Assembly: GCA_964366905.1 (NCBI GenBank)
Contig: CAYIVQ010000003.1
Location: 1 to 39,180, forward strand
Direction of reading: 5' to 3'
Origin: an uncultured Candidatus Saccharibacteria bacterium
GTDB taxonomy: Bacteria > Patescibacteriota > Minisyncoccia > GWC2-36-17 > WO2-46-25
DNA length: 39,180 bases
Below are positions 1-39,018 of the stretch, piece after piece. The notes under the pieces were generated by a model. That model saw only the letters and a list, made by a program, of their open reading frames with translations. It made no database searches and was not told the DNA's origin. Position 1 is the first letter of the stretch, and every line of letters begins with the position of its first letter. The position numbers were made by a program, and so were the translations under genes.

Positions 1-309
1 TTTGATTTAAAAACAGTCAAAACATCAAAACCCAAAGCCGTTATTTTACTTTGTCGTTTCCCAGCGGCAGGGAAGCGGCGCATCCTGATGATATAACACC
101 AGCTTCCTCTTATCAGAAATTAGAGGAGCCGATGGCAAGAATTTAAATTAAACTCTTGCGAAAGCAAATGAAGGAGCAAATAGCGAAGCTACCGCTCTTT
201 TTGCTTGTGTAAATAAGTTTGCACTTATCTTTTTACCGCTGTTTTTCGACGAAACGGCAAGTCGGCTTGCATATTTTAAATGTTCTCTCTGTCAAAGCCC
301 AACATCCCC
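1..309 (-). ncRNA. ssrA: tmRNA (SsrA), 3' part cut off by the window edge
   Basis: The minus strand read from 309 starts GGGGATGTTGGGCTTTGACAGAG, which fits the conserved tmRNA 5' end (GGGG..G...GG.TTyGAC). A GCA codon ~88 nt in opens a short frame, ANLFTQAKRAVASLFAPSFAFARV then TAA, a candidate tag. It lies directly downstream of smpB on the same strand. The T-arm and CCA end would lie beyond position 1. Confidence 0.6.
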
Positions 310-367: not shown

Positions 368-805
368 CTACAAGTTTCTATGAATTTCTCTTTCCGCTTC
401 TCTCTTTCTGATTAATTCTCTTTTCTCGAATTTCTTTTTTGAACGCGCCAATCCGATCTTCAGTTTTATTTTACGATTTGAAGTATATACGGAAATAGGC
501 GCTAATGTCAAGCCTTTTTGCGATGTTTTGCCCGTGAGTTCGTTGATTTCCTCTTTGCGAAGCAATAGTTTTCTGGTTCTGTCTTGTTGGTACCAGTTTG
601 GCGTGTTTTTAGGCTGATATGGCGGGATAACAGCGTTAACCCAAAATGCTTCGCCGCCTCTTATTATAACAAACGATCCTTTTAAGCTCGCCAGCCCTTT
701 TAATATAGCTTTCACTTCAAAACCATGCAGTTCAATGCCGGCATCGTAAGTTTCCAGTATTTCATAGTCGAAAAGCGCTTTTTTATTGTCTGTAAGAGTT
801 GGCAT
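368..805 (-). CDS. smpB: SsrA-binding protein SmpB
   Basis: 145-aa ORF. The N-terminal KKALFDYEILETYDAGIELHGFEVKA and the basic C-terminal tail are typical of SmpB. It is adjacent to the tmRNA. Confidence 0.9.
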   Translation of the reverse strand: MPTLTDNKKALFDYEILETYDAGIELHGFEVKAILKGLASLKGSFVIIRGGEAFWVNAVIPPYQPKNTPNWYQQDRTRKLLLRKEEINELTGKTSQKGLTLAPISVYTSNRKIKLKIGLARSKKKFEKRELIRKREAEREIHRNL

Positions 806-842: not shown

Positions 843-873
843 AAAAACCCTGATCAGAGACCAGGGTTTTTTT
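843..873 (-). terminator. Intrinsic terminator downstream of pup (A-tract / stem / T-tract, potentially bidirectional)
   Basis: aaaaaccctg atcagaga ccagggttttttt. CCCTG pairs with CAGGG, flanked by A5 and T7 runs. It lies 25 nt after the pup stop. Confidence 0.55.
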
Positions 874-897
874 GATTCTTCCAAAGAACTGCTATTA

Positions 898-1095
898 TTA
901 TTCTCCCCCCTTTTGCACATAATTTCTCACAAACTCTTCCGCATTTTCTTCAAGCACATCATCTATTTTGTCCAGCACATCATTTATGTCTTTTTTTAGT
1001 TTCTCGCCTTTTTGAACCGTTTCAGGATTTGCTTTTACTTCTTCTCTTTTTTCTTCTTTTTCGTGACTCTTCTTTTGGACTTGCTCTTTTCCCAT
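898..1095 (-). CDS. pup: Prokaryotic ubiquitin-like protein Pup, C-terminal GGE form
   Basis: The C-terminus DVLDKIDDVLEENAEEFVRNYVQKGGE closely matches the Pup signature (IDDVLEENAE.FVR.YVQKGG[QE]), and the N-terminal half is disordered and charged. A strong SD (AAAGGGAGGTG) sits about 4-6 nt before the ATG at 1095; the ORF track starts one codon earlier at a GTG. Confidence 0.88.
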   Translation of the reverse strand: MGKEQVQKKSHEKEEKREEVKANPETVQKGEKLKKDINDVLDKIDDVLEENAEEFVRNYVQKGGE

Positions 1096-1167
1096 CACGC
1101 ACCTCCCTTTAAGGTTTGATTATAGTTTACCATGAAATCAATAAAACACAAGAATACAACGCTTTTT

Positions 1168-1197
1168 TTGACTGCGGCGCCATTTTTCATGTAATAT
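1168..1197 (+). promoter_or_regulatory. Putative sigma70-type promoter of ileS, giving a near-leaderless mRNA
   Basis: TTGACT (1168-1173), an 18-nt spacer, then TAATAT (1192-1197). The ATG at 1206 is 8 nt after the -10 element. Confidence 0.4.
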
Positions 1198-1205
1198 GTG
1201 TTTAT

Positions 1206-4200
1206 ATGGATAACATAGAGAAGGAAATAAAAACGAAATCAAAAATCGCGTTAATGGAGGAAGCGGTTCTTGATTGGTGGGATAAAAACGATGTATTTCA
1301 GAAAAGCTTGGATAAGCGCCGCAAAGGCAAGCCGTTTGTTTTCTACGAAGGCCCGCCCACCGCCAACGGAATGCCGCATCCTGGGCATGTGATGGGGAGG
1401 TGTTTCAAAGATATTTTCTTGCGCTACAAATCCATGCGCGGATATTTTGTGGAGCGTCATGCCGGCTGGGATACGCACGGCTTGCCTGTGGAAATCGAAG
1501 TGGAAAAACAGCTTGGCATCAAGTCAAAGCCGGAAATCGAGAAATTCGGCGTCGCGGAATTTAATCGCCTTTGCAAACAATCTGTTTGGAAATACAAAGA
1601 CGAATGGGAAAAGCTGACAAAGCGGATCGGTTTTTGGCTGGATATGGAGCACCCGTATATTACTTATGAAAATAAATATATTGAAACTCTCTGGTGGGTT
1701 ATAGGGCAAATTTTTAAAAAAGGGCTTTTGGTCCAGGATTATAAAGTCATGCATTATTGCGTTCGTTGCGGTACCGGATTGTCGTCGCACGAAATCGCCC
1801 AAGGCTACAAAGTCGTTCAAGATAAATCTGTTTATGTGAAATTTCGGCTCAAGTCGGAAGCGAATTCGGAGAAAAAGATTTTAAAAAAGATGCGAAGCGG
1901 GTTTAAATTCGATGAGCCAGATATTCATGAAGCGAAAGAATATTTTTTGGTTTGGACCACCACTCCATGGACTCTGCCTGCCAATGTAGCTTTAGCTGTC
2001 AATCCGAAGCTTATTTACGCGCGGGCGCGGAAAGACAAAGAAGTTTTAATTTTAGCTAAAGATTTGCTGAAAGCATTGGGAGACGGATGGGAAGTGATTG
2101 AAGAATTCTCGGGCAAAGAATTGCTCGGCGAAGAATATCACCAGCTTTTTGAATTTTTAAAACCGGAGAAGAAAGCGTTTTTTGTCGCGGCCGGGGACTT
2201 TGTTTCCGCTCAAGACGGCACCGGCATTGTCCATATAGCGCCCGCGTACGGCGAAGACGATATGCAAATCGCGCGTGAATATGATTTGCCGGTTTTGCAT
2301 CCGGTTATGGAAAACGGCCAGTTTGAAGCGGCTATCCCATGGCAAGGCAAATTCGTGAAGAATGCCGATCCGGAAATAACCGAAGATTTGAGAAATCGCG
2401 GGCTGCTTTTTAAAGAAGAAATATATGAGCATGAATATCCGTTTTGCTGGCGATGCGGCACTCCGATTTTGTATTACGCGAGAAAGTCGTGGTTTATAAA
2501 GATGTCAAAGTTAAAGCAAAAAATCATCGCCAATAATAAACAGATAAATTGGGTTCCCGCTCATCTGAAGGAAGGCAGGTTCGGAGAGTGGCTTTTGGAG
2601 TTGAAAGATTGGGCGTTTTCGCGCGACAGGTATTGGGGCACTCCATTGCCGATTTGGCAGTGTGGAAAATGCGGGGATACGCAAGCTGTATCCGGCATTG
2701 CCGAGCTTAGCCGGCTGAGCAGGTTTAAAAACAGATATTTCATCATGCGGCACGGCAGAGCGGTGAGCAATGAAAGAGGCTTTGTCGATCTTTCGCACTC
2801 CGATAATCATGTTACCGAAAGCGGAGCAAAAGACGCGGTGAAATTACTTAAAAATTTTAAAAAGAAATTTTCTGATTTAAAATTTGACTTTATTATTTCT
2901 TCTCCGGTGCTTCGCGCCAGAGAAACCGCTGATATTGCTTCTGATTTTTTCGGCATTGCCAAGTCCGGTATTTTTACCGATCCGGCGCTTAGTGAAATCA
3001 ATGTCGGAATTTTTGACGGTAAATCCATAGAAGAATACCATCGGTATTTTGCCTCGCCGGAAGAAAAATTCTTCAAAGCTCCGCCGGATGGCGAGAATTT
3101 AAATGATGTTAAAAAACGCGTTACGGAGTTTATCAAAAAAGAAGAATCAAAATACACGGGCAAAAATATTTTAATAGTAAGCCACGAATATTCTTTATGG
3201 ATTTTAGAAACCGCGCTTGACGGTTTGGATAATTCGGAAATATTGGAACGCAAGCTGGGAAAGAAAGGCGACTATATAAGCACAGGAGAGATCAGAGAGA
3301 TTATGTCTGGAGAATTGCCTTTGAACGCGGAAGGCGAACTGGATTTGCATAAGCCGTATATAGACAATATTAAAATCGGTTGCAAAAAATGCGGCGCTGA
3401 AATGGACAGAGCTCCGGAAGTAACGGATGTCTGGTTTGATTCCGGGGCGATGCCTCTGGCGCAAACGGGTTTTCCGTTTGCGCAAATCTCAAATCTCAAA
3501 TCTCAAATCTCAAATACATACAGCAATGTGGATTATAAAAAACTTATCAAACAAATTCCGTTTCCGGCTGATTTTATTTGCGAGGGCGTAGATCAGACAA
3601 GGGGATGGTTTTACACTATGCTCGCTGTCTCCACTCTATTGGAAACAGGCGCGCCGTATAAAAATGTGGTTTCAACCGGACATATTCTTGATAAATTAGG
3701 GAAAAAAATGTCCAAGTCAAAGAAAAATTATGTTGATCCGACGGAAATCGCCGATAAGTATGGAATTGACGCGTTGAGATGGTATTTTTTTACCGTTAAT
3801 TCGGTGGGAGAGCCAAAGCGTTTTGACGAGAAAGATGTTTCGGACTCGCAGAGAAAATCAGTGATGCTTTTACTGAATATTTATAATTTTTTTGAATCTT
3901 ACGCCAGCTTTTCAAAAAAAGAAGCGGTTTTGCCGCAACAACAGTCGCTTACTCTGTTAGACGAATGGATTTTATCCAGATTACATGAAACTATCGCCGT
4001 TATGAACATTGCCTTAGATGAGTATGATGCTATGACCGCTTCTAGAAGTTTAGCGTCTTTTTTGGATGATTTTTCAACTTGGTACTTGAGAAGGTCGCGA
4101 AGCAGATTTCAGCACCCTAAAAACAAAGCCGATTTGAACGCGGCATCAGCCGTATTTCAATATGTTTTTGAGAACGCGTTAAAATTAGCCGCCCCTATTA

Positions 4201-4799
4201 TGCCGTTTGTCACGGAACATATCTGGCTGAAGTTTCATAATCAAAGTATACATTTGGAAAATTATCCTCAATCCGGCAAAAAATACATTGATAAAAAGCT
4301 TGGTTATGATATGATAAAAGTTAGAGAAATAGCCGCAATCGCGTTGAAAAAACGCGCTGAAGCGGGTGTAAAAGTCAGACAGCCGTTATCGGAATTACGA
4401 ATCAGGAATGACGAATCAGGAATTAAAAACAAGGAAGATTTGCTGAATATTATAAAAGAAGAGGTGAATGTTAAGAAAGTGTGTTTTGATAAAAAATTAG
4501 AAGATGATGTTTGGCTGGATGCCAATATCACGCCGGAATTAAAAGAAGAAGGCATTATCAGGGATGTTGTCAGAAATATACAGCAATTAAGAAAAGAAGC
4601 TGGATTAACAAGCAAAGATGTCATTTTGATAAAATATTTTGCCGAAGCGGAAGCGGGCAAGACGCTGGCGAAATTTCAAAAACAAATCAGCAAACAAACA
4701 TTAGCAAAGGAAATGATTGCGGTTAAGCGAGATGATTTAACAAAATCAAAGGAGATTGATTTGGAGGGAATAAAAGTCTGGATTCAAATTAACTCTTAG
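1206..4799 (+). CDS. ileS: Isoleucine--tRNA ligase carrying a nested ~205-aa domain insertion
   Basis: Class I motifs are present: PPTANGMPHPGHV (HIGH-type), KMSKS, the CP1 editing region, paired CxxC zinc knuckles (WQCGKCGD and CKKCGAEM) and WFDSG. The start is taken at M31 (1206), because the upstream 30 codons overlap the promoter. Confidence 0.93.
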   Translation: MDNIEKEIKTKSKIALMEEAVLDWWDKNDVFQKSLDKRRKGKPFVFYEGPPTANGMPHPGHVMGRCFKDIFLRYKSMRGYFVERHAGWDTHGLPVEIEVEKQLGIKSKPEIEKFGVAEFNRLCKQSVWKYKDEWEKLTKRIGFWLDMEHPYITYENKYIETLWWVIGQIFKKGLLVQDYKVMHYCVRCGTGLSSHEIAQGYKVVQDKSVYVKFRLKSEANSEKKILKKMRSGFKFDEPDIHEAKEYFLVWTTTPWTLPANVALAVNPKLIYARARKDKEVLILAKDLLKALGDGWEVIEEFSGKELLGEEYHQLFEFLKPEKKAFFVAAGDFVSAQDGTGIVHIAPAYGEDDMQIAREYDLPVLHPVMENGQFEAAIPWQGKFVKNADPEITEDLRNRGLLFKEEIYEHEYPFCWRCGTPILYYARKSWFIKMSKLKQKIIANNKQINWVPAHLKEGRFGEWLLELKDWAFSRDRYWGTPLPIWQCGKCGDTQAVSGIAELSRLSRFKNRYFIMRHGRAVSNERGFVDLSHSDNHVTESGAKDAVKLLKNFKKKFSDLKFDFIISSPVLRARETADIASDFFGIAKSGIFTDPALSEINVGIFDGKSIEEYHRYFASPEEKFFKAPPDGENLNDVKKRVTEFIKKEESKYTGKNILIVSHEYSLWILETALDGLDNSEILERKLGKKGDYISTGEIREIMSGELPLNAEGELDLHKPYIDNIKIGCKKCGAEMDRAPEVTDVWFDSGAMPLAQTGFPFAQISNLKSQISNTYSNVDYKKLIKQIPFPADFICEGVDQTRGWFYTMLAVSTLLETGAPYKNVVSTGHILDKLGKKMSKSKKNYVDPTEIADKYGIDALRWYFFTVNSVGEPKRFDEKDVSDSQRKSVMLLLNIYNFFESYASFSKKEAVLPQQQSLTLLDEWILSRLHETIAVMNIALDEYDAMTASRSLASFLDDFSTWYLRRSRSRFQHPKNKADLNAASAVFQYVFENALKLAAPIMPFVTEHIWLKFHNQSIHLENYPQSGKKYIDKKLGYDMIKVREIAAIALKKRAEAGVKVRQPLSELRIRNDESGIKNKEDLLNIIKEEVNVKKVCFDKKLEDDVWLDANITPELKEEGIIRDVVRNIQQLRKEAGLTSKDVILIKYFAEAEAGKTLAKFQKQISKQTLAKEMIAVKRDDLTKSKEIDLEGIKVWIQINS
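2721..3335 (+). other. Histidine-phosphatase (PGAM/SixA/CobC superfamily) domain inserted between the two zinc-knuckle halves of IleRS
   Basis: YFIMRHGRAVSNE (RHG motif), SSPVLRARETA, LSEINVGIFDG, PPDGENLNDVKKRV and ILIVSHEYSL follow the full motif order of the histidine phosphatase superfamily. The flanking IleRS sequence resumes at LDLHKPYID. Confidence 0.8.
3483..3517 (+). repeat. Heptanucleotide tandem repeat (caaatct x4 plus caaatac) inside the ileS coding sequence
   Basis: Direct reading gives caaatct at 3483, 3490, 3497 and 3504, and caaatac at 3511. It encodes QISNLKSQISNT in a variable linker after WFDSG. Confidence 0.95.
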
Positions 4800-28594: not shown

Positions 28595-30109
28595 ATGAAC
28601 AAGGAACAGGAAAAAATCGGTAAATTTATTGCGGATTTGCGGCATAAAAAAGGGCTGACGCAGGAAGAGTTTGCCAAGCTTTTGGGGACAAGTCAGAGCG
28701 CGGTAACGCGTATGGAGAAGGGCGAGCAGAATTTCAGCACTGAAATGCTTTCCAAAATCAGCCGCGTTCTCAACAAAAGCATCATTAGTTTGTCCGGCGA
28801 AGCGCTTAATTTAAAAATCGAAGGCGGCCGAAAGCTTTCCGGAACGGCGACCATTAAAACTTCCAAGAACGCCGCCGTGGCTCTGCTCTGCGCTTCTCTT
28901 TTGAATTCCGGCAAAACCGTTCTCAAAAATATTCCCCGCATTGAGGAAGTAAACCGCATCATTGAAGTGCTTGTGAGTCTGGGTGTTTCGGTGAAATGGA
29001 CTAATGGCGGTGATCTTGAAATTGTTCCTCCGAAAAAAATTGACATTGAGAATACCAATGTGGAAGCGGCTATGCGTACGCGCAGTGTCTTGATGCTTTT
29101 GGGGCCGCTGGTTCACTTGCTAGATAAATTCCAACTTCCTTATCCGGGCGGTTGCAAGCTCGGTACGCGCACAGTGCGGCCACATCTTTTCGCGCTTGAA
29201 AAACTGGGCGTGGATATTGTCGCGGCCAAAGGGAATTATCATGTTTCGGCCGGCAAGCTTCATCCGTCAGAAATCGTGCTTTACGAATCGGGCGATACGG
29301 TGACGGAAAATATTTTGATGGCCGTCGCTAAAATCAATGGCACGACCATTATTAAATTTGCTTCGGCCAATTACCAGGTGCAGGATCTATGTTATTTTCT
29401 GGTTGAGCTTGGCGTAAAAATAGAAGGCATCGGCACGACTACTCTTGTTATCCACGGCAAACCGGAAATTGATATGATGGTGGAATACTCTCCAAGCGAG
29501 GATCCGATTGAAGCGATGCTATTTTTATCCATCGCGGCAACCACCAATTCTTCAATCATCATTGAGCGGTGCCCGATAGATTTTTTGGAATTGGAGCTTT
29601 TGAAGCTTGAAAAGATGGGATTTAAATACAAAATTTTAAAGCGATACAAAGCGAAAAACGGACAGGCGAATTTAGTTGATATCCAAACGCTTCCTTCAAA
29701 ACTGAAAGCATTGGAAGAAAAAATATACGCCCGCCCGTTTCCCGGACTTAACATCGATAATCTGCCGTTTTTCGTGCCGATCGCCACGCAAGCCAAAGGG
29801 CGGACTTTGATTCACGACTGGGTTTTTGAAAATCGGGCGATCTATTACGCGGAATTGGCCAAGCTGGGCGCCAATGTTATTTTGGCCGATCCGCACCGGG
29901 TGTATATAGAAGGGCCGACAGAACTAAAGGCTGCAGAAGTGGTCTGCCCGCCCGCCTTGCGTCCGGCGGCGATTATTTTGGTCGCGATGCTTGCCGCCAA
30001 AGGCACATCAATTTTACGCAATGTTTATTCAATTAACCGAGGATACGAGGACTTATGCGCGCGCTTAAACAAGCTCGGAGCCAAAATCCAACCACTCCGG
30101 GAATTTTAA
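28595..30109 (+). CDS. murA: XRE-type helix-turn-helix domain fused to UDP-N-acetylglucosamine 1-carboxyvinyltransferase (MurA)
   Basis: Residues 1-65 (IGKFIADLRHKKGLTQEEFAKLLGTSQSAVTRMEKGEQNFSTEML) form a canonical HTH_XRE domain. The remainder is MurA-like (KTSKNAAVALLCASLL; the catalytic-loop PGGCKLGTRTVRPH with Cys retained; C-terminal YEDLCARLNKLGAKI). Confidence 0.85.
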   Translation: MNKEQEKIGKFIADLRHKKGLTQEEFAKLLGTSQSAVTRMEKGEQNFSTEMLSKISRVLNKSIISLSGEALNLKIEGGRKLSGTATIKTSKNAAVALLCASLLNSGKTVLKNIPRIEEVNRIIEVLVSLGVSVKWTNGGDLEIVPPKKIDIENTNVEAAMRTRSVLMLLGPLVHLLDKFQLPYPGGCKLGTRTVRPHLFALEKLGVDIVAAKGNYHVSAGKLHPSEIVLYESGDTVTENILMAVAKINGTTIIKFASANYQVQDLCYFLVELGVKIEGIGTTTLVIHGKPEIDMMVEYSPSEDPIEAMLFLSIAATTNSSIIIERCPIDFLELELLKLEKMGFKYKILKRYKAKNGQANLVDIQTLPSKLKALEEKIYARPFPGLNIDNLPFFVPIATQAKGRTLIHDWVFENRAIYYAELAKLGANVILADPHRVYIEGPTELKAAEVVCPPALRPAAIILVAMLAAKGTSILRNVYSINRGYEDLCARLNKLGAKIQPLREF

Positions 30110-38415: not shown

Positions 38416-39018
38416 ATGAAAGGAGAAGCGACTTTGAAAGTATTGGAATATGTAGGTGATGCCGCGGTGGGCATACTTGATTTAACTGCCGCGTTTTTGG
38501 GCGCAGGATATGGCGCGTCGGCCAGTAAAATATTACATGAGTTTGATAAGAAAGATAGAGAACGTTCGCAGAAGTGCGTTGATCATCTGGAAATAAAACG
38601 GCAGAAACAAAGATTTAGCACTATACTTTGCAGATTAAAAAATGACGGCTTGATTGAAGAAAAAGCTGATGACAGCAAATCTTATATTAAACTTACAACT
38701 AAAGGCAAACGGCATTTTGAGGCGTTGAAGAAAAGGCGTTTAGAAGCTTTGCCGGATACTTTTTATGACAAACATAATCCGAAAGATGGAAAATTCATGA
38801 TAGTTGCTTTTGATATTCCGGAATGCGAAAGAAGAAAAAGAGTATGGCTTAGATCAGCATTGAAAAATATAGGTTTTAATCTCATACAAAAAAGCGTATG
38901 GGCCGGAAAAGTCAAAATACCGCAACAATTTTTGGATGATTTGAAAGATTTGCGGTTAGTTGAATATGTAGAAATTTTTGAAATCAGTAAAACAGGTTCA
39001 TTGCGCCAACTCACTTAA
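38416..39018 (+). CDS. PaaX-like regulator: winged-helix plus a Cas2-fold (PaaX_C-like) domain
   Basis: FSTILCRLKNDGLIEEK...YIKLTTKGKRHF looks like a wHTH. GKFMIVAFDIPECERRKRVWLRSALKNIGFNLIQKSVWAGK matches the PaaX/Cas2-like W..vvFDIPe..R..R..lr..L...GF..lq.SVW pattern. Confidence 0.65.
   Translation: MKGEATLKVLEYVGDAAVGILDLTAAFLGAGYGASASKILHEFDKKDRERSQKCVDHLEIKRQKQRFSTILCRLKNDGLIEEKADDSKSYIKLTTKGKRHFEALKKRRLEALPDTFYDKHNPKDGKFMIVAFDIPECERRKRVWLRSALKNIGFNLIQKSVWAGKVKIPQQFLDDLKDLRLVEYVEIFEISKTGSLRQLT

What the first reader, a model, noticed from the sequence alone, without database searches (positions are those of the whole stretch)
898..1095. Orphan Pup (prokaryotic ubiquitin-like protein) with a ligation-ready GGE end, next to smpB-tmRNA
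Seen in sequence:
- The 65-aa product ends ...DVLDKIDDVLEENAEEFVRNYVQKGGE, almost residue-for-residue the conserved C-terminal helix and tail of actinobacterial Pup.
- It has its own strong SD and its own terminator.

Established knowledge:
- Pup is ligated to lysines by PafA. GGQ forms need Dop deamidation, and GGE forms do not.
- To my knowledge the system is described mainly in Actinobacteria, Nitrospirae and a few other lineages, normally clustered with dop/pafA/mpa/prcBA.

Inference:
- No ligase, depupylase, ATPase or proteasome gene lies within 38 kb here, and the rest of the window looks like a reduced CPR-type genome. That would be an unexpected host for pupylation.
- The three consecutive minus-strand genes pup, smpB and ssrA place two different protein-tagging systems side by side.
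Basis: partly seen in the sequence, partly recalled or inferred. Interest (0 to 1): 0.72.

Follow-up and report, generated by a model that had tools for sequence, protein, structure and literature searches.

The report
Stand-alone Pup gene in a CPR bacterium
The ORF is a genuine, selectively maintained bacterial protein tag (Pup) in an ultra-small groundwater bacterium; its ligase is not nearby, but related bacteria from the same aquifer keep the matching enzymes at a separate, pup-less locus, so it is probably an ordinary pupylation tag with an unusual scattered gene layout.

Summary
Window 898..1095 (-) encodes a 65-aa protein that passes Pfam Pup (78 bits, cutoff 27) and TIGR03687 (63 bits, cutoff 41). 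It ends in GGE, has its own SD and terminator, and lies next to smpB and a truncated tmRNA. No PafA/Dop, ARC/Mpa or 20S gene lies in the window or in about 10 kb more of the same genome.

The "orphan" reading holds only at locus level. Stand-alone pup genes recur in at least five CPR-type contexts, so the smpB adjacency is not conserved. Their C-terminal halves are under strong purifying selection.

Patescibacteria from the same aquifer and two other sites carry the complement: ARC, then an aminotransferase, then two divergent Pup_ligase paralogs, with no pup and no 20S genes. Candidatus Sungbacteria carries ARC-ligase-pup as a cluster.

The most likely explanation is a dispersed pupylation system whose ligase lies elsewhere in this genome. 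I could not show that for this genome. A truly ligase-less Pup that works through a host's machinery is not excluded (about 0.1).

The closest non-CPR Pups come from groundwater Nitrospirota with canonical clusters.

Verdict: a new member of a known kind with an unusual gene layout. Interest is moderate.

The parts
898..1095 (-). pup coding sequence: 65 codons plus the first stop TAA at 898-900. The product ends ...YVQKGGE.
   Evidence: Pfam PF05639 78.1 bits. TIGR03687 63 bits. Aligns to PDB Pup chains.
892..897 (-). two further in-frame stop codons (TAA TAG) directly after the first, so that GGE is followed by TAA TAA TAG
   Evidence: read directly from the sequence. The other CPR pups have a single stop.
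1101..1108 (-). Shine-Dalgarno sequence AGGGAGGT, 5 nt upstream of the ATG
   Evidence: read directly from the sequence
1119..1124 (-). TATAAT hexamer, a possible -10 box for a short-leader pup transcript. This is inference: no good -35 was seen and the scan did not call it.
   Evidence: sequence. The promoter scan lists no minus-strand site here.
843..871 (-). intrinsic-terminator-like hairpin AAAAACCCUGGUC-UCU-GAUCAGGGUUUUU followed by AUUUGUU, between pup and smpB
   Evidence: fold z=-3.6. Equivalent hairpins follow every CPR stand-alone pup examined (L103's contig ends before any T-run) but not the Nitrospirota pups.
368..805 (-). smpB. A neighbour only; not part of the Pup function.
   Evidence: Pfam SmpB 160.9 bits. 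The adjacency is absent from the other CPR pup loci.
1..309 (-). 5' part of the tmRNA gene (ssrA), truncated by the window edge. A neighbour only.
   Evidence: Rfam RF00023 58 bits. The full gene and its tag peptide are seen in L001.

Best explanation
The ORF is a functional prokaryotic ubiquitin-like protein (Pup), expressed as a monocistronic gene. Its C-terminal glutamate is ready for ATP-dependent gamma-glutamyl ligation to substrate lysines without prior deamidation.

Shown:
- Family membership, and the intact C-terminal helix and GGE tail.
- Its own SD and terminator.
- Strong purifying selection across CPR lineages.
- The absence of enzyme genes nearby.

Inferred: the ligase (a divergent PafA-type Pup_ligase), a Dop-like paralog and an ARC/Mpa-type ATPase are encoded elsewhere in the same genome. 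This is the layout suggested for sibling Patescibacteria, which carry ARC - aminotransferase - Pup_ligase - Pup_ligase loci with no pup gene. Pupylated proteins would then be bound through Pup's helix by the ARC coiled coil and unfolded. Degradation would follow if a 20S or another protease is present.

The position next to smpB-ssrA is coincidental. The gene most likely reached CPR by horizontal transfer from a Nitrospirota-like donor.
For: Identity: Pfam and NCBIfam scores lie well above their cutoffs. Residues 27-65 align to the Mpa- and PafA/Dop-bound parts of solved Pup.

Selection: between the window and six other CPR pups, synonymous sites are saturated (pS 0.8-1.0). Non-synonymous change in the last 30 codons is only pN 0.03-0.16. 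Close pairs give dN/dS of 0.08-0.18 overall and 0.02-0.06 over the last 30 codons.

Recurrence: stand-alone pup occurs in 5 different CPR contexts, each followed by a strong hairpin, with a T-run wherever the contig extends far enough.

Complementary loci: Hainich wells H41, H32 and H51 and two other sites carry ARC (TIGR03689 503.9 bits), Aminotran_3, a Pup_ligase of 549-557 aa (Dop model scores best) and a Pup_ligase of 510-558 aa. These loci show no pup at tblastn E<=10 and no 20S genes. NCBI names them '[Patescibacteria group bacterium]'. Their tetranucleotide r to the window is 0.90-0.93. Catalytic motifs are retained (RLYxD..H.EY, HEN, INTRDExHA).

Canonical Pup works beside divergent enzymes in CPR: the Sungbacteria-type L108 and L202 loci have ARC, a ligase 33% identical to the Nitrospirota ligase, and a pup ending ...EENAEEFVKSYVQRGG[EQ].

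Same assembly: ERZ1292627 (well H51) holds both the orphan pup P0048 (coverage 5.1) and an enzyme cluster P0243 (coverage 3.4).

Donor: the nearest non-CPR Pups are groundwater Nitrospirota (67-78% identity) in mpa-dop-pup-prcB-prcA-pafA clusters.
Against: No enzyme cluster was found in any H52 sample or linked to this genome. Only about 49 kb of the genome was examined.

The H51 pup and the H51 enzyme cluster sit in different MAG accessions (GCA_964361915.1 and GCA_964366255.1). Their GC differs slightly (53% against 50%) and their TNF r is 0.79.

Only about six CPR-type PafA-like protein clusters were recovered, and that search has limited sensitivity.

The two CPR paralogs fall below the NCBIfam equivalog cutoffs and cannot be assigned to ligase or depupylase by sequence.

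Published surveys say pup is invariably adjacent to a PafA gene (PMC2588565), so an unlinked layout has no described precedent.
Confidence: 0.6

Rival explanations
1. True genomic orphan used across cells. The CPR cell has no ligase and delivers ligation-ready Pup(GGE) to a host that has PafA/Mpa, such as Nitrospirota or Actinobacteria. There it would hijack, saturate or decoy the host's pupylation or proteasome pathway.
For: No enzymes were found in about 49 kb. The C-terminal half is near-identical to the Pups of co-occurring groundwater Nitrospirota. GGE needs no Dop. Purifying selection shows that a partner exists. Many CPR bacteria are episymbionts (established knowledge; PMC7906910 abstract).
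Against: Sibling Patescibacteria in the same aquifer encode their own ARC and two Pup_ligase paralogs at pup-less loci, and these need an unlinked pup. No signal peptide or secretion signal is evident in the 65-aa sequence. No host is known.
Confidence: 0.1
2. Ligase-independent role. Pup acts non-covalently, for example as a binder or regulator of an ARC-type ATPase or another partner.
For: The helix that binds the Mpa coiled coil is conserved. The locus lacks a ligase.
Against: The invariant GGE terminus and the last roughly 26 residues, which form the PafA/Dop-groove part, are conserved as strictly as in conjugating systems. CPR genomes do encode Pup_ligase homologs with intact catalytic motifs.
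Confidence: 0.1
3. Functional coupling of Pup with trans-translation (smpB-tmRNA), as the gene order suggests.
For: pup, smpB and ssrA are consecutive on one strand here, and in every assembly of this population long enough to show them.
Against: A terminator separates pup from smpB. The other four CPR pup contexts lack smpB and ssrA.
Confidence: 0.03
4. Decaying relic of a horizontal transfer, or an assembly or binning artefact.
For: The nearest relatives are Nitrospirota. The gene's GC (36%) is slightly below the contig's (41%).
Against: dN/dS is far below 1, with saturated synonymous sites across CPR lineages. The SD and terminator are intact. The identical junctions were assembled in 10 separate assemblies. 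The contig's tetranucleotide signature is CPR-like, not Nitrospirota-like. The low GC follows from Lys/Glu-rich codons.
Confidence: 0.03

Closest known systems
Canonical Pup-proteasome system of Actinobacteria and Nitrospirota (mpa-dop-pup-prcB-prcA-pafA)
   Same: The Pup is about the same length, has the same C-terminal helix and the same GG[EQ] tail. It is 67-78% identical to groundwater Nitrospirota Pups, and residues 27-65 align to M. tuberculosis Pup.
   Different: Here pup stands alone with its own terminator. In 79 of 80 species-representative loci retrieved, pup sits beside dop/prc/pafA, and the single exception is a Patescibacteria MAG. The literature calls the adjacency invariable (PMC2588565) and the gene order 'rigidly conserved' (PMC3511204).
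Proteasome-less pupylation loci (ARC, Dop, Pup, PafA without prcBA) of some Actinobacteria (PMC3511204, cluster III)
   Same: The CPR enzyme loci have ARC and two Pup_ligase paralogs and no 20S genes nearby.
   Different: In those actinobacteria pup remains inside the locus. The CPR ARC proteins keep a C-terminal GQYL/GHYL motif. From my own knowledge, this is the 20S-docking motif of Mpa, so a 20S elsewhere in the genome is not excluded.
Candidatus Sungbacteria (CPR) ARC - Pup_ligase - pup - IMPDH cluster (GCA_001822305.1; L108, L201-L204)
   Same: It is a CPR host with a canonical Pup C-terminus alongside strongly divergent enzymes.
   Different: pup is clustered there. It belongs to the ...KSYVQRGG[EQ] type, and only one Pup_ligase gene is seen in the DNA held.
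UBact (Pup homolog reported in Gram-negative phyla and some candidate phyla, Lehmann et al. 2017). Recalled from memory; the paper is not in the searchable library.
   Same: It is a Pup-family tag outside Actinobacteria, reportedly including Parcubacteria-type candidate phyla.
   Different: The window protein is a canonical Pup that passes TIGR03687 and ends YVQKGGE, not the divergent UBact type. UBact was reported inside mpa-dop-prc-pafA clusters.
Planctomycetes single PafA/Dop homolog (PMC7947786)
   Same: It is a divergent Pup_ligase-family enzyme about 30% identical to both PafA and Dop, as the CPR paralogs are.
   Different: It is a different phylum. CPR has two paralogs at the Hainich-type loci.

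Membership tests
Pup (PF05639 / TIGR03687) | Scores above the curated family cutoffs | tested here: met
   PF05639 78.1 bits against 27. TIGR03687 63 bits against 41.45.
Pup (PF05639 / TIGR03687) | C-terminal GG[EQ] at the very end of a protein of about 60-70 aa | tested here: met
   ...YVQKGGE followed by TAA TAA TAG; 65 aa.
Pup (PF05639 / TIGR03687) | Conserved helix that binds the Mpa coiled coil and the PafA/Dop groove | tested here: met
   Residues 27-65 align to Pup in 3M9D (Mpa complex), 4BJR (PafA fusion), and 7OY3 and 9CKU (Pup chains in Dop entries). This is a sequence-level test only.
Pup (PF05639 / TIGR03687) | The gene lies adjacent to a PafA/Dop gene (stated as invariable in PMC2588565) | tested here: not met
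   No Pup_ligase in the window or in L001.
Pupylation system (functional) | A PafA-type ligase is encoded in the same genome | not testable with these tools
   Only about 49 kb of this genome is accessible. Sibling Patescibacteria carry pup-less ARC plus two Pup_ligase loci.
Pupylation system (functional) | Covalent Pup-lysine isopeptide on substrates | not testable with these tools
   Needs mass spectrometry or biochemistry.
Pup-proteasome system | 20S prcB/prcA genes present | tested here: not met
   No Proteasome-family hit in the window or in the CPR enzyme loci held. Presence elsewhere in the genome was not testable. The ARC proteins keep a GQYL/GHYL end.
   There are four other CPR contexts without smpB. 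A terminator lies between pup and smpB.
CPR / Patescibacteria host | The contig's composition and gene content match Patescibacteria rather than a Pup-typical phylum | tested here: met
   TNF r is 0.97 to L048 ('Patescibacteria group bacterium') and 0.48-0.56 to Nitrospirota loci. GC is 41%, against 52-74% in the actinobacterial loci. The contigs are named as 0.1 and 0.2 um fractions. A PaaX_M/Cas2-like gene is shared with other CPR loci. No marker-gene phylogeny was done.

The most novel reading that the evidence does not exclude
The genome truly lacks any Pup ligase. This ultra-small episymbiont makes a ligation-ready Pup(GGE), acquired from a Nitrospirota-like lineage, to act on a host's pupylation or Mpa-proteasome machinery. 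That would be a cross-cell 'ubiquitin-like effector' in bacteria.
Probability: 0.08. Interest if true: 0.9.

Novelty: new member of a known kind. Interest (0 to 1): 0.42.

Why it matters
Pupylation is treated as an actinobacterial and Nitrospirota trait with a rigid gene cluster. These data show a canonical Pup under strong selection in candidate-phyla-radiation bacteria with tiny genomes, kept as a stand-alone gene. The matching ATPase and two very divergent PafA/Dop paralogs sit at separate, pup-less loci in related genomes.

Three consequences follow:
- The host range of the system is extended.
- The 'pup is always next to pafA' rule that annotation and surveys rely on is broken. A second, larger soil group with dcd-pup-lysR synteny breaks it too.
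- Naturally divergent ligase/depupylase pairs that still recognise a canonical Pup become available, which is useful for studying how PafA and Dop diverged.

If the genome really had no ligase, the finding would be far more remarkable.

Tried and rejected
1. ARAGORN on the window found no tmRNA because the gene is truncated. Rfam found it, and L001 holds the full gene.

2. The genome-contig scan with the window Pup was swamped by Acidimicrobiia, because the FVRNYVQKGGE pattern matches them. It returned only one Patescibacteria MAG and neither the window's own genome nor any close relative.

3. The viral-contig scan gave one high-GC contig with a Pup C-terminus and nothing CPR-like. A phage origin for this pup is not supported.

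4. Literature searches for pupylation or Pup together with CPR, Patescibacteria or Parcubacteria found nothing relevant.

5. I tried to link an enzyme cluster to the H52 population. The CPR PafA-like clade recovered (P0241-P0246) comes from H41, H32, H51 and two unrelated runs, none from H52. The listing of cluster members gave no sample or taxon names.

6. tblastn of Nitrospirota and CPR enzymes against all orphan-pup loci at E<=1 gave only noise.

7. Assigning the two CPR paralogs to PafA or Dop was inconclusive. For the 510-aa paralog, the NCBIfam PafA model scores slightly higher, while Dop structures score higher in PDB.

8. The relic, contamination and smpB-coupling readings were rejected (see the rival explanations).

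Full report
**Observation.** The minus strand of the window carries an ORF from ATG 1095 to the stop at 898-900. It encodes the 65-aa protein MGKEQVQKKSHEKEEKREEVKANPETVQKGEKLKKDINDVLDKIDDVLEENAEEFVRNYVQKGGE. It matches Pfam Pup (PF05639) over essentially the whole model, at 78.1 bits against a gathering cutoff of 27 and E=9.5e-22. It also matches the NCBIfam equivalog-domain model TIGR03687 at 63 bits against 41.45. Residues 27-65 align to solved Pup chains from the Mpa complex (3M9D), the PafA fusion (4BJR) and Dop complexes.

The gene has a strong SD (AGGGAGGT, 5 nt from the ATG). Three consecutive in-frame stops follow the terminal Glu (GAA TAA TAA TAG). A 13-bp hairpin with a T-run follows at 871..843 and folds better than all 200 shuffles. 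Downstream on the same strand lie smpB (368..805) and the 5' 309 nt of a tmRNA. The full tmRNA gene, with tag peptide ANLFTQAKRAVASLFAPSFAFARV, is present in the overlapping contig L001.

**Surroundings.** I scanned 30 of the large ORFs of the window against Pfam. They are housekeeping and CPR-typical genes: IleRS with an inserted His_Phos_1 domain, RecO, HisRS-like, M16 peptidase, RNase J-like, MgtC, Fpg, DNA pol III delta, CTP synthase, UvrB, RuvA, FemAB, Mur ligases, DUF192, cyclophilin, ThiI, MurA-like, an Elp3-type radical SAM and a PaaX_M/Cas2-like protein.

None is a Pup_ligase (PafA/Dop), a proteasomal AAA ATPase or a 20S subunit. tblastn with Nitrospirota and CPR versions of those enzymes finds nothing at E<=1. 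L001 extends about 9 kb beyond the tmRNA (IF3, a histidine kinase, PolA, ArgRS) and also has none.

The identical pup-smpB junction, flanked by IleRS wherever the contig reaches, was assembled independently in 10 assemblies of Hainich aquifer well H52, in 0.1 and 0.2 um fractions. Its tetranucleotide profile correlates at 0.97 with a locus from a 'Patescibacteria group bacterium' MAG and at only 0.48-0.56 with Nitrospirota Pup loci. It is neither a chimera nor an actinobacterial mis-bin.

**Relatives of the Pup.** The database search returned 1528 Pup-family proteins. The closest group (65-79% identity, 66 aa) shares the motif KANP..T..KGEKLKKDIDDVLDKIDD, and the members I looked up come from groundwater metagenomes. 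Next come groundwater Nitrospirota Pups.

In the scan of species-representative genomes, 79 of 80 loci carry dop, prcB/prcA and/or pafA right beside pup. These are mostly Acidimicrobiia, plus Nitrospirota and one Thermodesulfobacteriota. The single exception is the Patescibacteria MAG DP16D_bin.14 (L048). Nitrospirota loci L014, L017 and L100 show the canonical mpa-dop-pup-prcB-prcA-pafA order.

**Stand-alone pup recurs in CPR.** I found five different contexts, none with enzyme genes in the DNA held:
- IleRS <-> pup-smpB-ssrA: the window and L001-L010.
- obg <-> pup-RRM: GCA_964361915.1 'Patescibacteria group bacterium', L011-L013.
- recJ <-> pup: L048.
- ECF sigma <-> pup <-> HTH-PRTase: groundwater contigs L094-L099; L103 and L104, 89% identical to P0002, are the same Pup type but their contexts were not examined.
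- PaaX_M/Cas2-like, alaS <-> pup: L105, and probably L106, which carries the identical pup ORF.

Every one of these pups that I examined is followed by a GC-rich hairpin, with a T-run wherever the contig extends far enough, whereas Nitrospirota pups run straight into prcB. The smpB adjacency is therefore specific to this lineage and most likely coincidental.

**Selection.** Between the window gene and the other CPR pups, synonymous sites are saturated (pS 0.8-1.0). The last 30 codons show pN of only 0.03-0.16. For the closely related trio L094/L103/L104, dN/dS is 0.08-0.18 overall and 0.02-0.06 in the C-terminal 30 codons. The gene has been kept functional for a long time in several CPR lineages. 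The constrained part is exactly the part that binds Mpa and PafA/Dop in characterised systems. A partner must exist.

**Where the partner probably is.** One low-GC metagenome contig (L108) has ARC (TIGR03689 555 bits), a 595-aa Pup_ligase, pup and IMPDH. The closest named relatives of that ligase are 'hypothetical proteins' of Candidatus Sungbacteria. GCA_001822305.1 shows the same cluster, with a pup ending ...EENAEEFVKSYVQRGGQ.

The same search surfaced 'PafA2 family protein [Patescibacteria group bacterium]' (P0226). Its loci come from Hainich wells H41, H32 and H51 and from two unrelated sequencing runs. They share a conserved arrangement:
- ARC of 614-618 aa (TIGR03689 503.9 bits against a cutoff of 504.75);
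- Aminotran_3 on the opposite strand;
- a Pup_ligase of 549-557 aa (Dop model 257 bits, PafA model 204);
- a Pup_ligase of 510-558 aa (PafA model 202, Dop model 188);
- a protein of about 521 aa with no Pfam match;
- then DUF2298 and/or RecG where the contig reaches that far.

These loci contain no pup at tblastn E<=10 (run on L184-L192) and no 20S genes. Their GC is 43-44% in the H41 and H32 loci and 50% in H51, and their tetranucleotide r to the window is 0.90-0.93 for H41/H32 against 0.64-0.68 for H51. The PafA-like paralog keeps the RLYxD..H.EY, HEN and INTRDExHA motifs in alignments to solved Dop chains. The ARC proteins keep a C-terminal GQYL/GHYL.

Enzymes without a tag and tags without enzymes, in the same group of organisms and the same aquifer, are best explained as two halves of one dispersed system. 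In well H51, the orphan pup P0048 and an enzyme cluster (P0243) occur in the same assembly at similar low coverage (5.1x and 3.4x). They are deposited in different MAGs, and their composition agrees only moderately.

**What is not shown.** I could not link an enzyme cluster to the H52 population that owns this window. The collection scans and context look-ups were exhausted, and the protein search depends on shared words, so divergent homologs can be missed. The statement 'the ligase is elsewhere in this genome' is therefore an inference, which I put at about 0.6-0.65. A genuinely ligase-less Pup that works through a host's machinery remains possible at about 0.1, as does a non-covalent role at about 0.1.

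[quoted passage not shown] They list sporadic occurrences in Verrucomicrobia, Nitrospirae, Deltaproteobacteria and Planctomycetes. Barandun et al. describe the order as 'rigidly conserved' (PMC3511204). Hecht et al. list NC10, Armatimonadetes, Verrucomicrobia, Nitrospinae, Firmicutes, Proteobacteria and Planctomycetes, but not CPR (PMC7947786). Full-text searches found no paper that combines pupylation with CPR, Patescibacteria or Parcubacteria.

From memory, the 2017 UBact paper reported Pup homologs in some Parcubacteria-type candidate phyla. It is not in the library, so I could not check it. NCBI's pipeline already names these proteins in MAGs. The occurrence is therefore visible in databases but essentially undescribed.

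**Verdict.** This is a real, functional-looking, canonical Pup in a CPR genome. It is orphan at the locus level only, and its position beside smpB-tmRNA is incidental. It most probably belongs to a dispersed pupylation system with divergent enzymes. I classify it as a new member of a known kind with an unusual gene layout, of moderate interest (0.42). The exciting reading, a ligase-less and host-directed Pup, is not excluded but is unlikely (about 0.08).

Noticed in passing
L107, L109-L182 (JGI soil metagenome contigs, GC 59-76%): A large second group of pup genes (...EENAEEFVKSYVQRGG[EQ]) sits in a conserved dcd - pup - lysR - AIR-synthase-like - (glycosyltransferase) - MoxR neighbourhood. 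No Mpa, Dop, PafA or 20S lies in the DNA held, which reaches 10 kb on each side in L118, L165 and L169 and somewhat less on one side in L176. The taxon is unknown. This also breaks the 'pup is adjacent to pafA' rule.
   Followed up: partly
L184-L200 (e.g. L184 6264-14811): Patescibacteria loci carry ARC - Aminotran_3(-) - two divergent Pup_ligase paralogs - a conserved protein of about 521 aa with no Pfam match. There is no pup and no 20S. The 521-aa protein is always directly downstream and may be part of the system.
   Followed up: partly
L184 6264-8108; L108 192-1961; L202 7890-9704: The CPR ARC/Mpa-like ATPases end in GHYL or GQYL, the motif that docks Mpa onto the 20S proteasome, although no 20S genes are nearby.
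   Followed up: no
window 892-900: The pup gene ends with three consecutive in-frame stop codons (TAA TAA TAG) directly after the ligatable Glu. The other CPR pups have a single stop.
   Followed up: partly
window 1116-4799: The isoleucyl-tRNA synthetase (1227 aa) carries an inserted histidine-phosphatase (His_Phos_1) domain in the middle of the catalytic domain.
   Followed up: no
L101 10001-11681, L102: A Hainich H32 contig (GC 47%, with chemotaxis genes) has cheW - pup - prcB - prcA. No dop, pafA or mpa lies within 10 kb upstream or about 4.5 kb downstream. This is another partly dispersed arrangement.
   Followed up: no
L183 9653-9709 (IMGVR_UViG_3300018422_000013, GC 71%): A contig classed as viral carries a Pup-like C-terminus (...EENAEEFVRNYVQKGGQ) with no pupylation enzymes nearby. 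It may be a misclassified actinobacterial fragment or a phage-borne pup.
   Followed up: no
window 38416-39018; L011 12408-12974; L105 121-693: A PaaX_M/Cas2-like protein of about 190-200 aa recurs in three unrelated CPR pup-bearing loci within a few kb to about 37 kb of pup. This is probably just a common CPR gene.
   Followed up: no
window 28595-30109: A MurA/EPSP-synthase-family enzyme is fused to an N-terminal Xre-type HTH domain.
   Followed up: no
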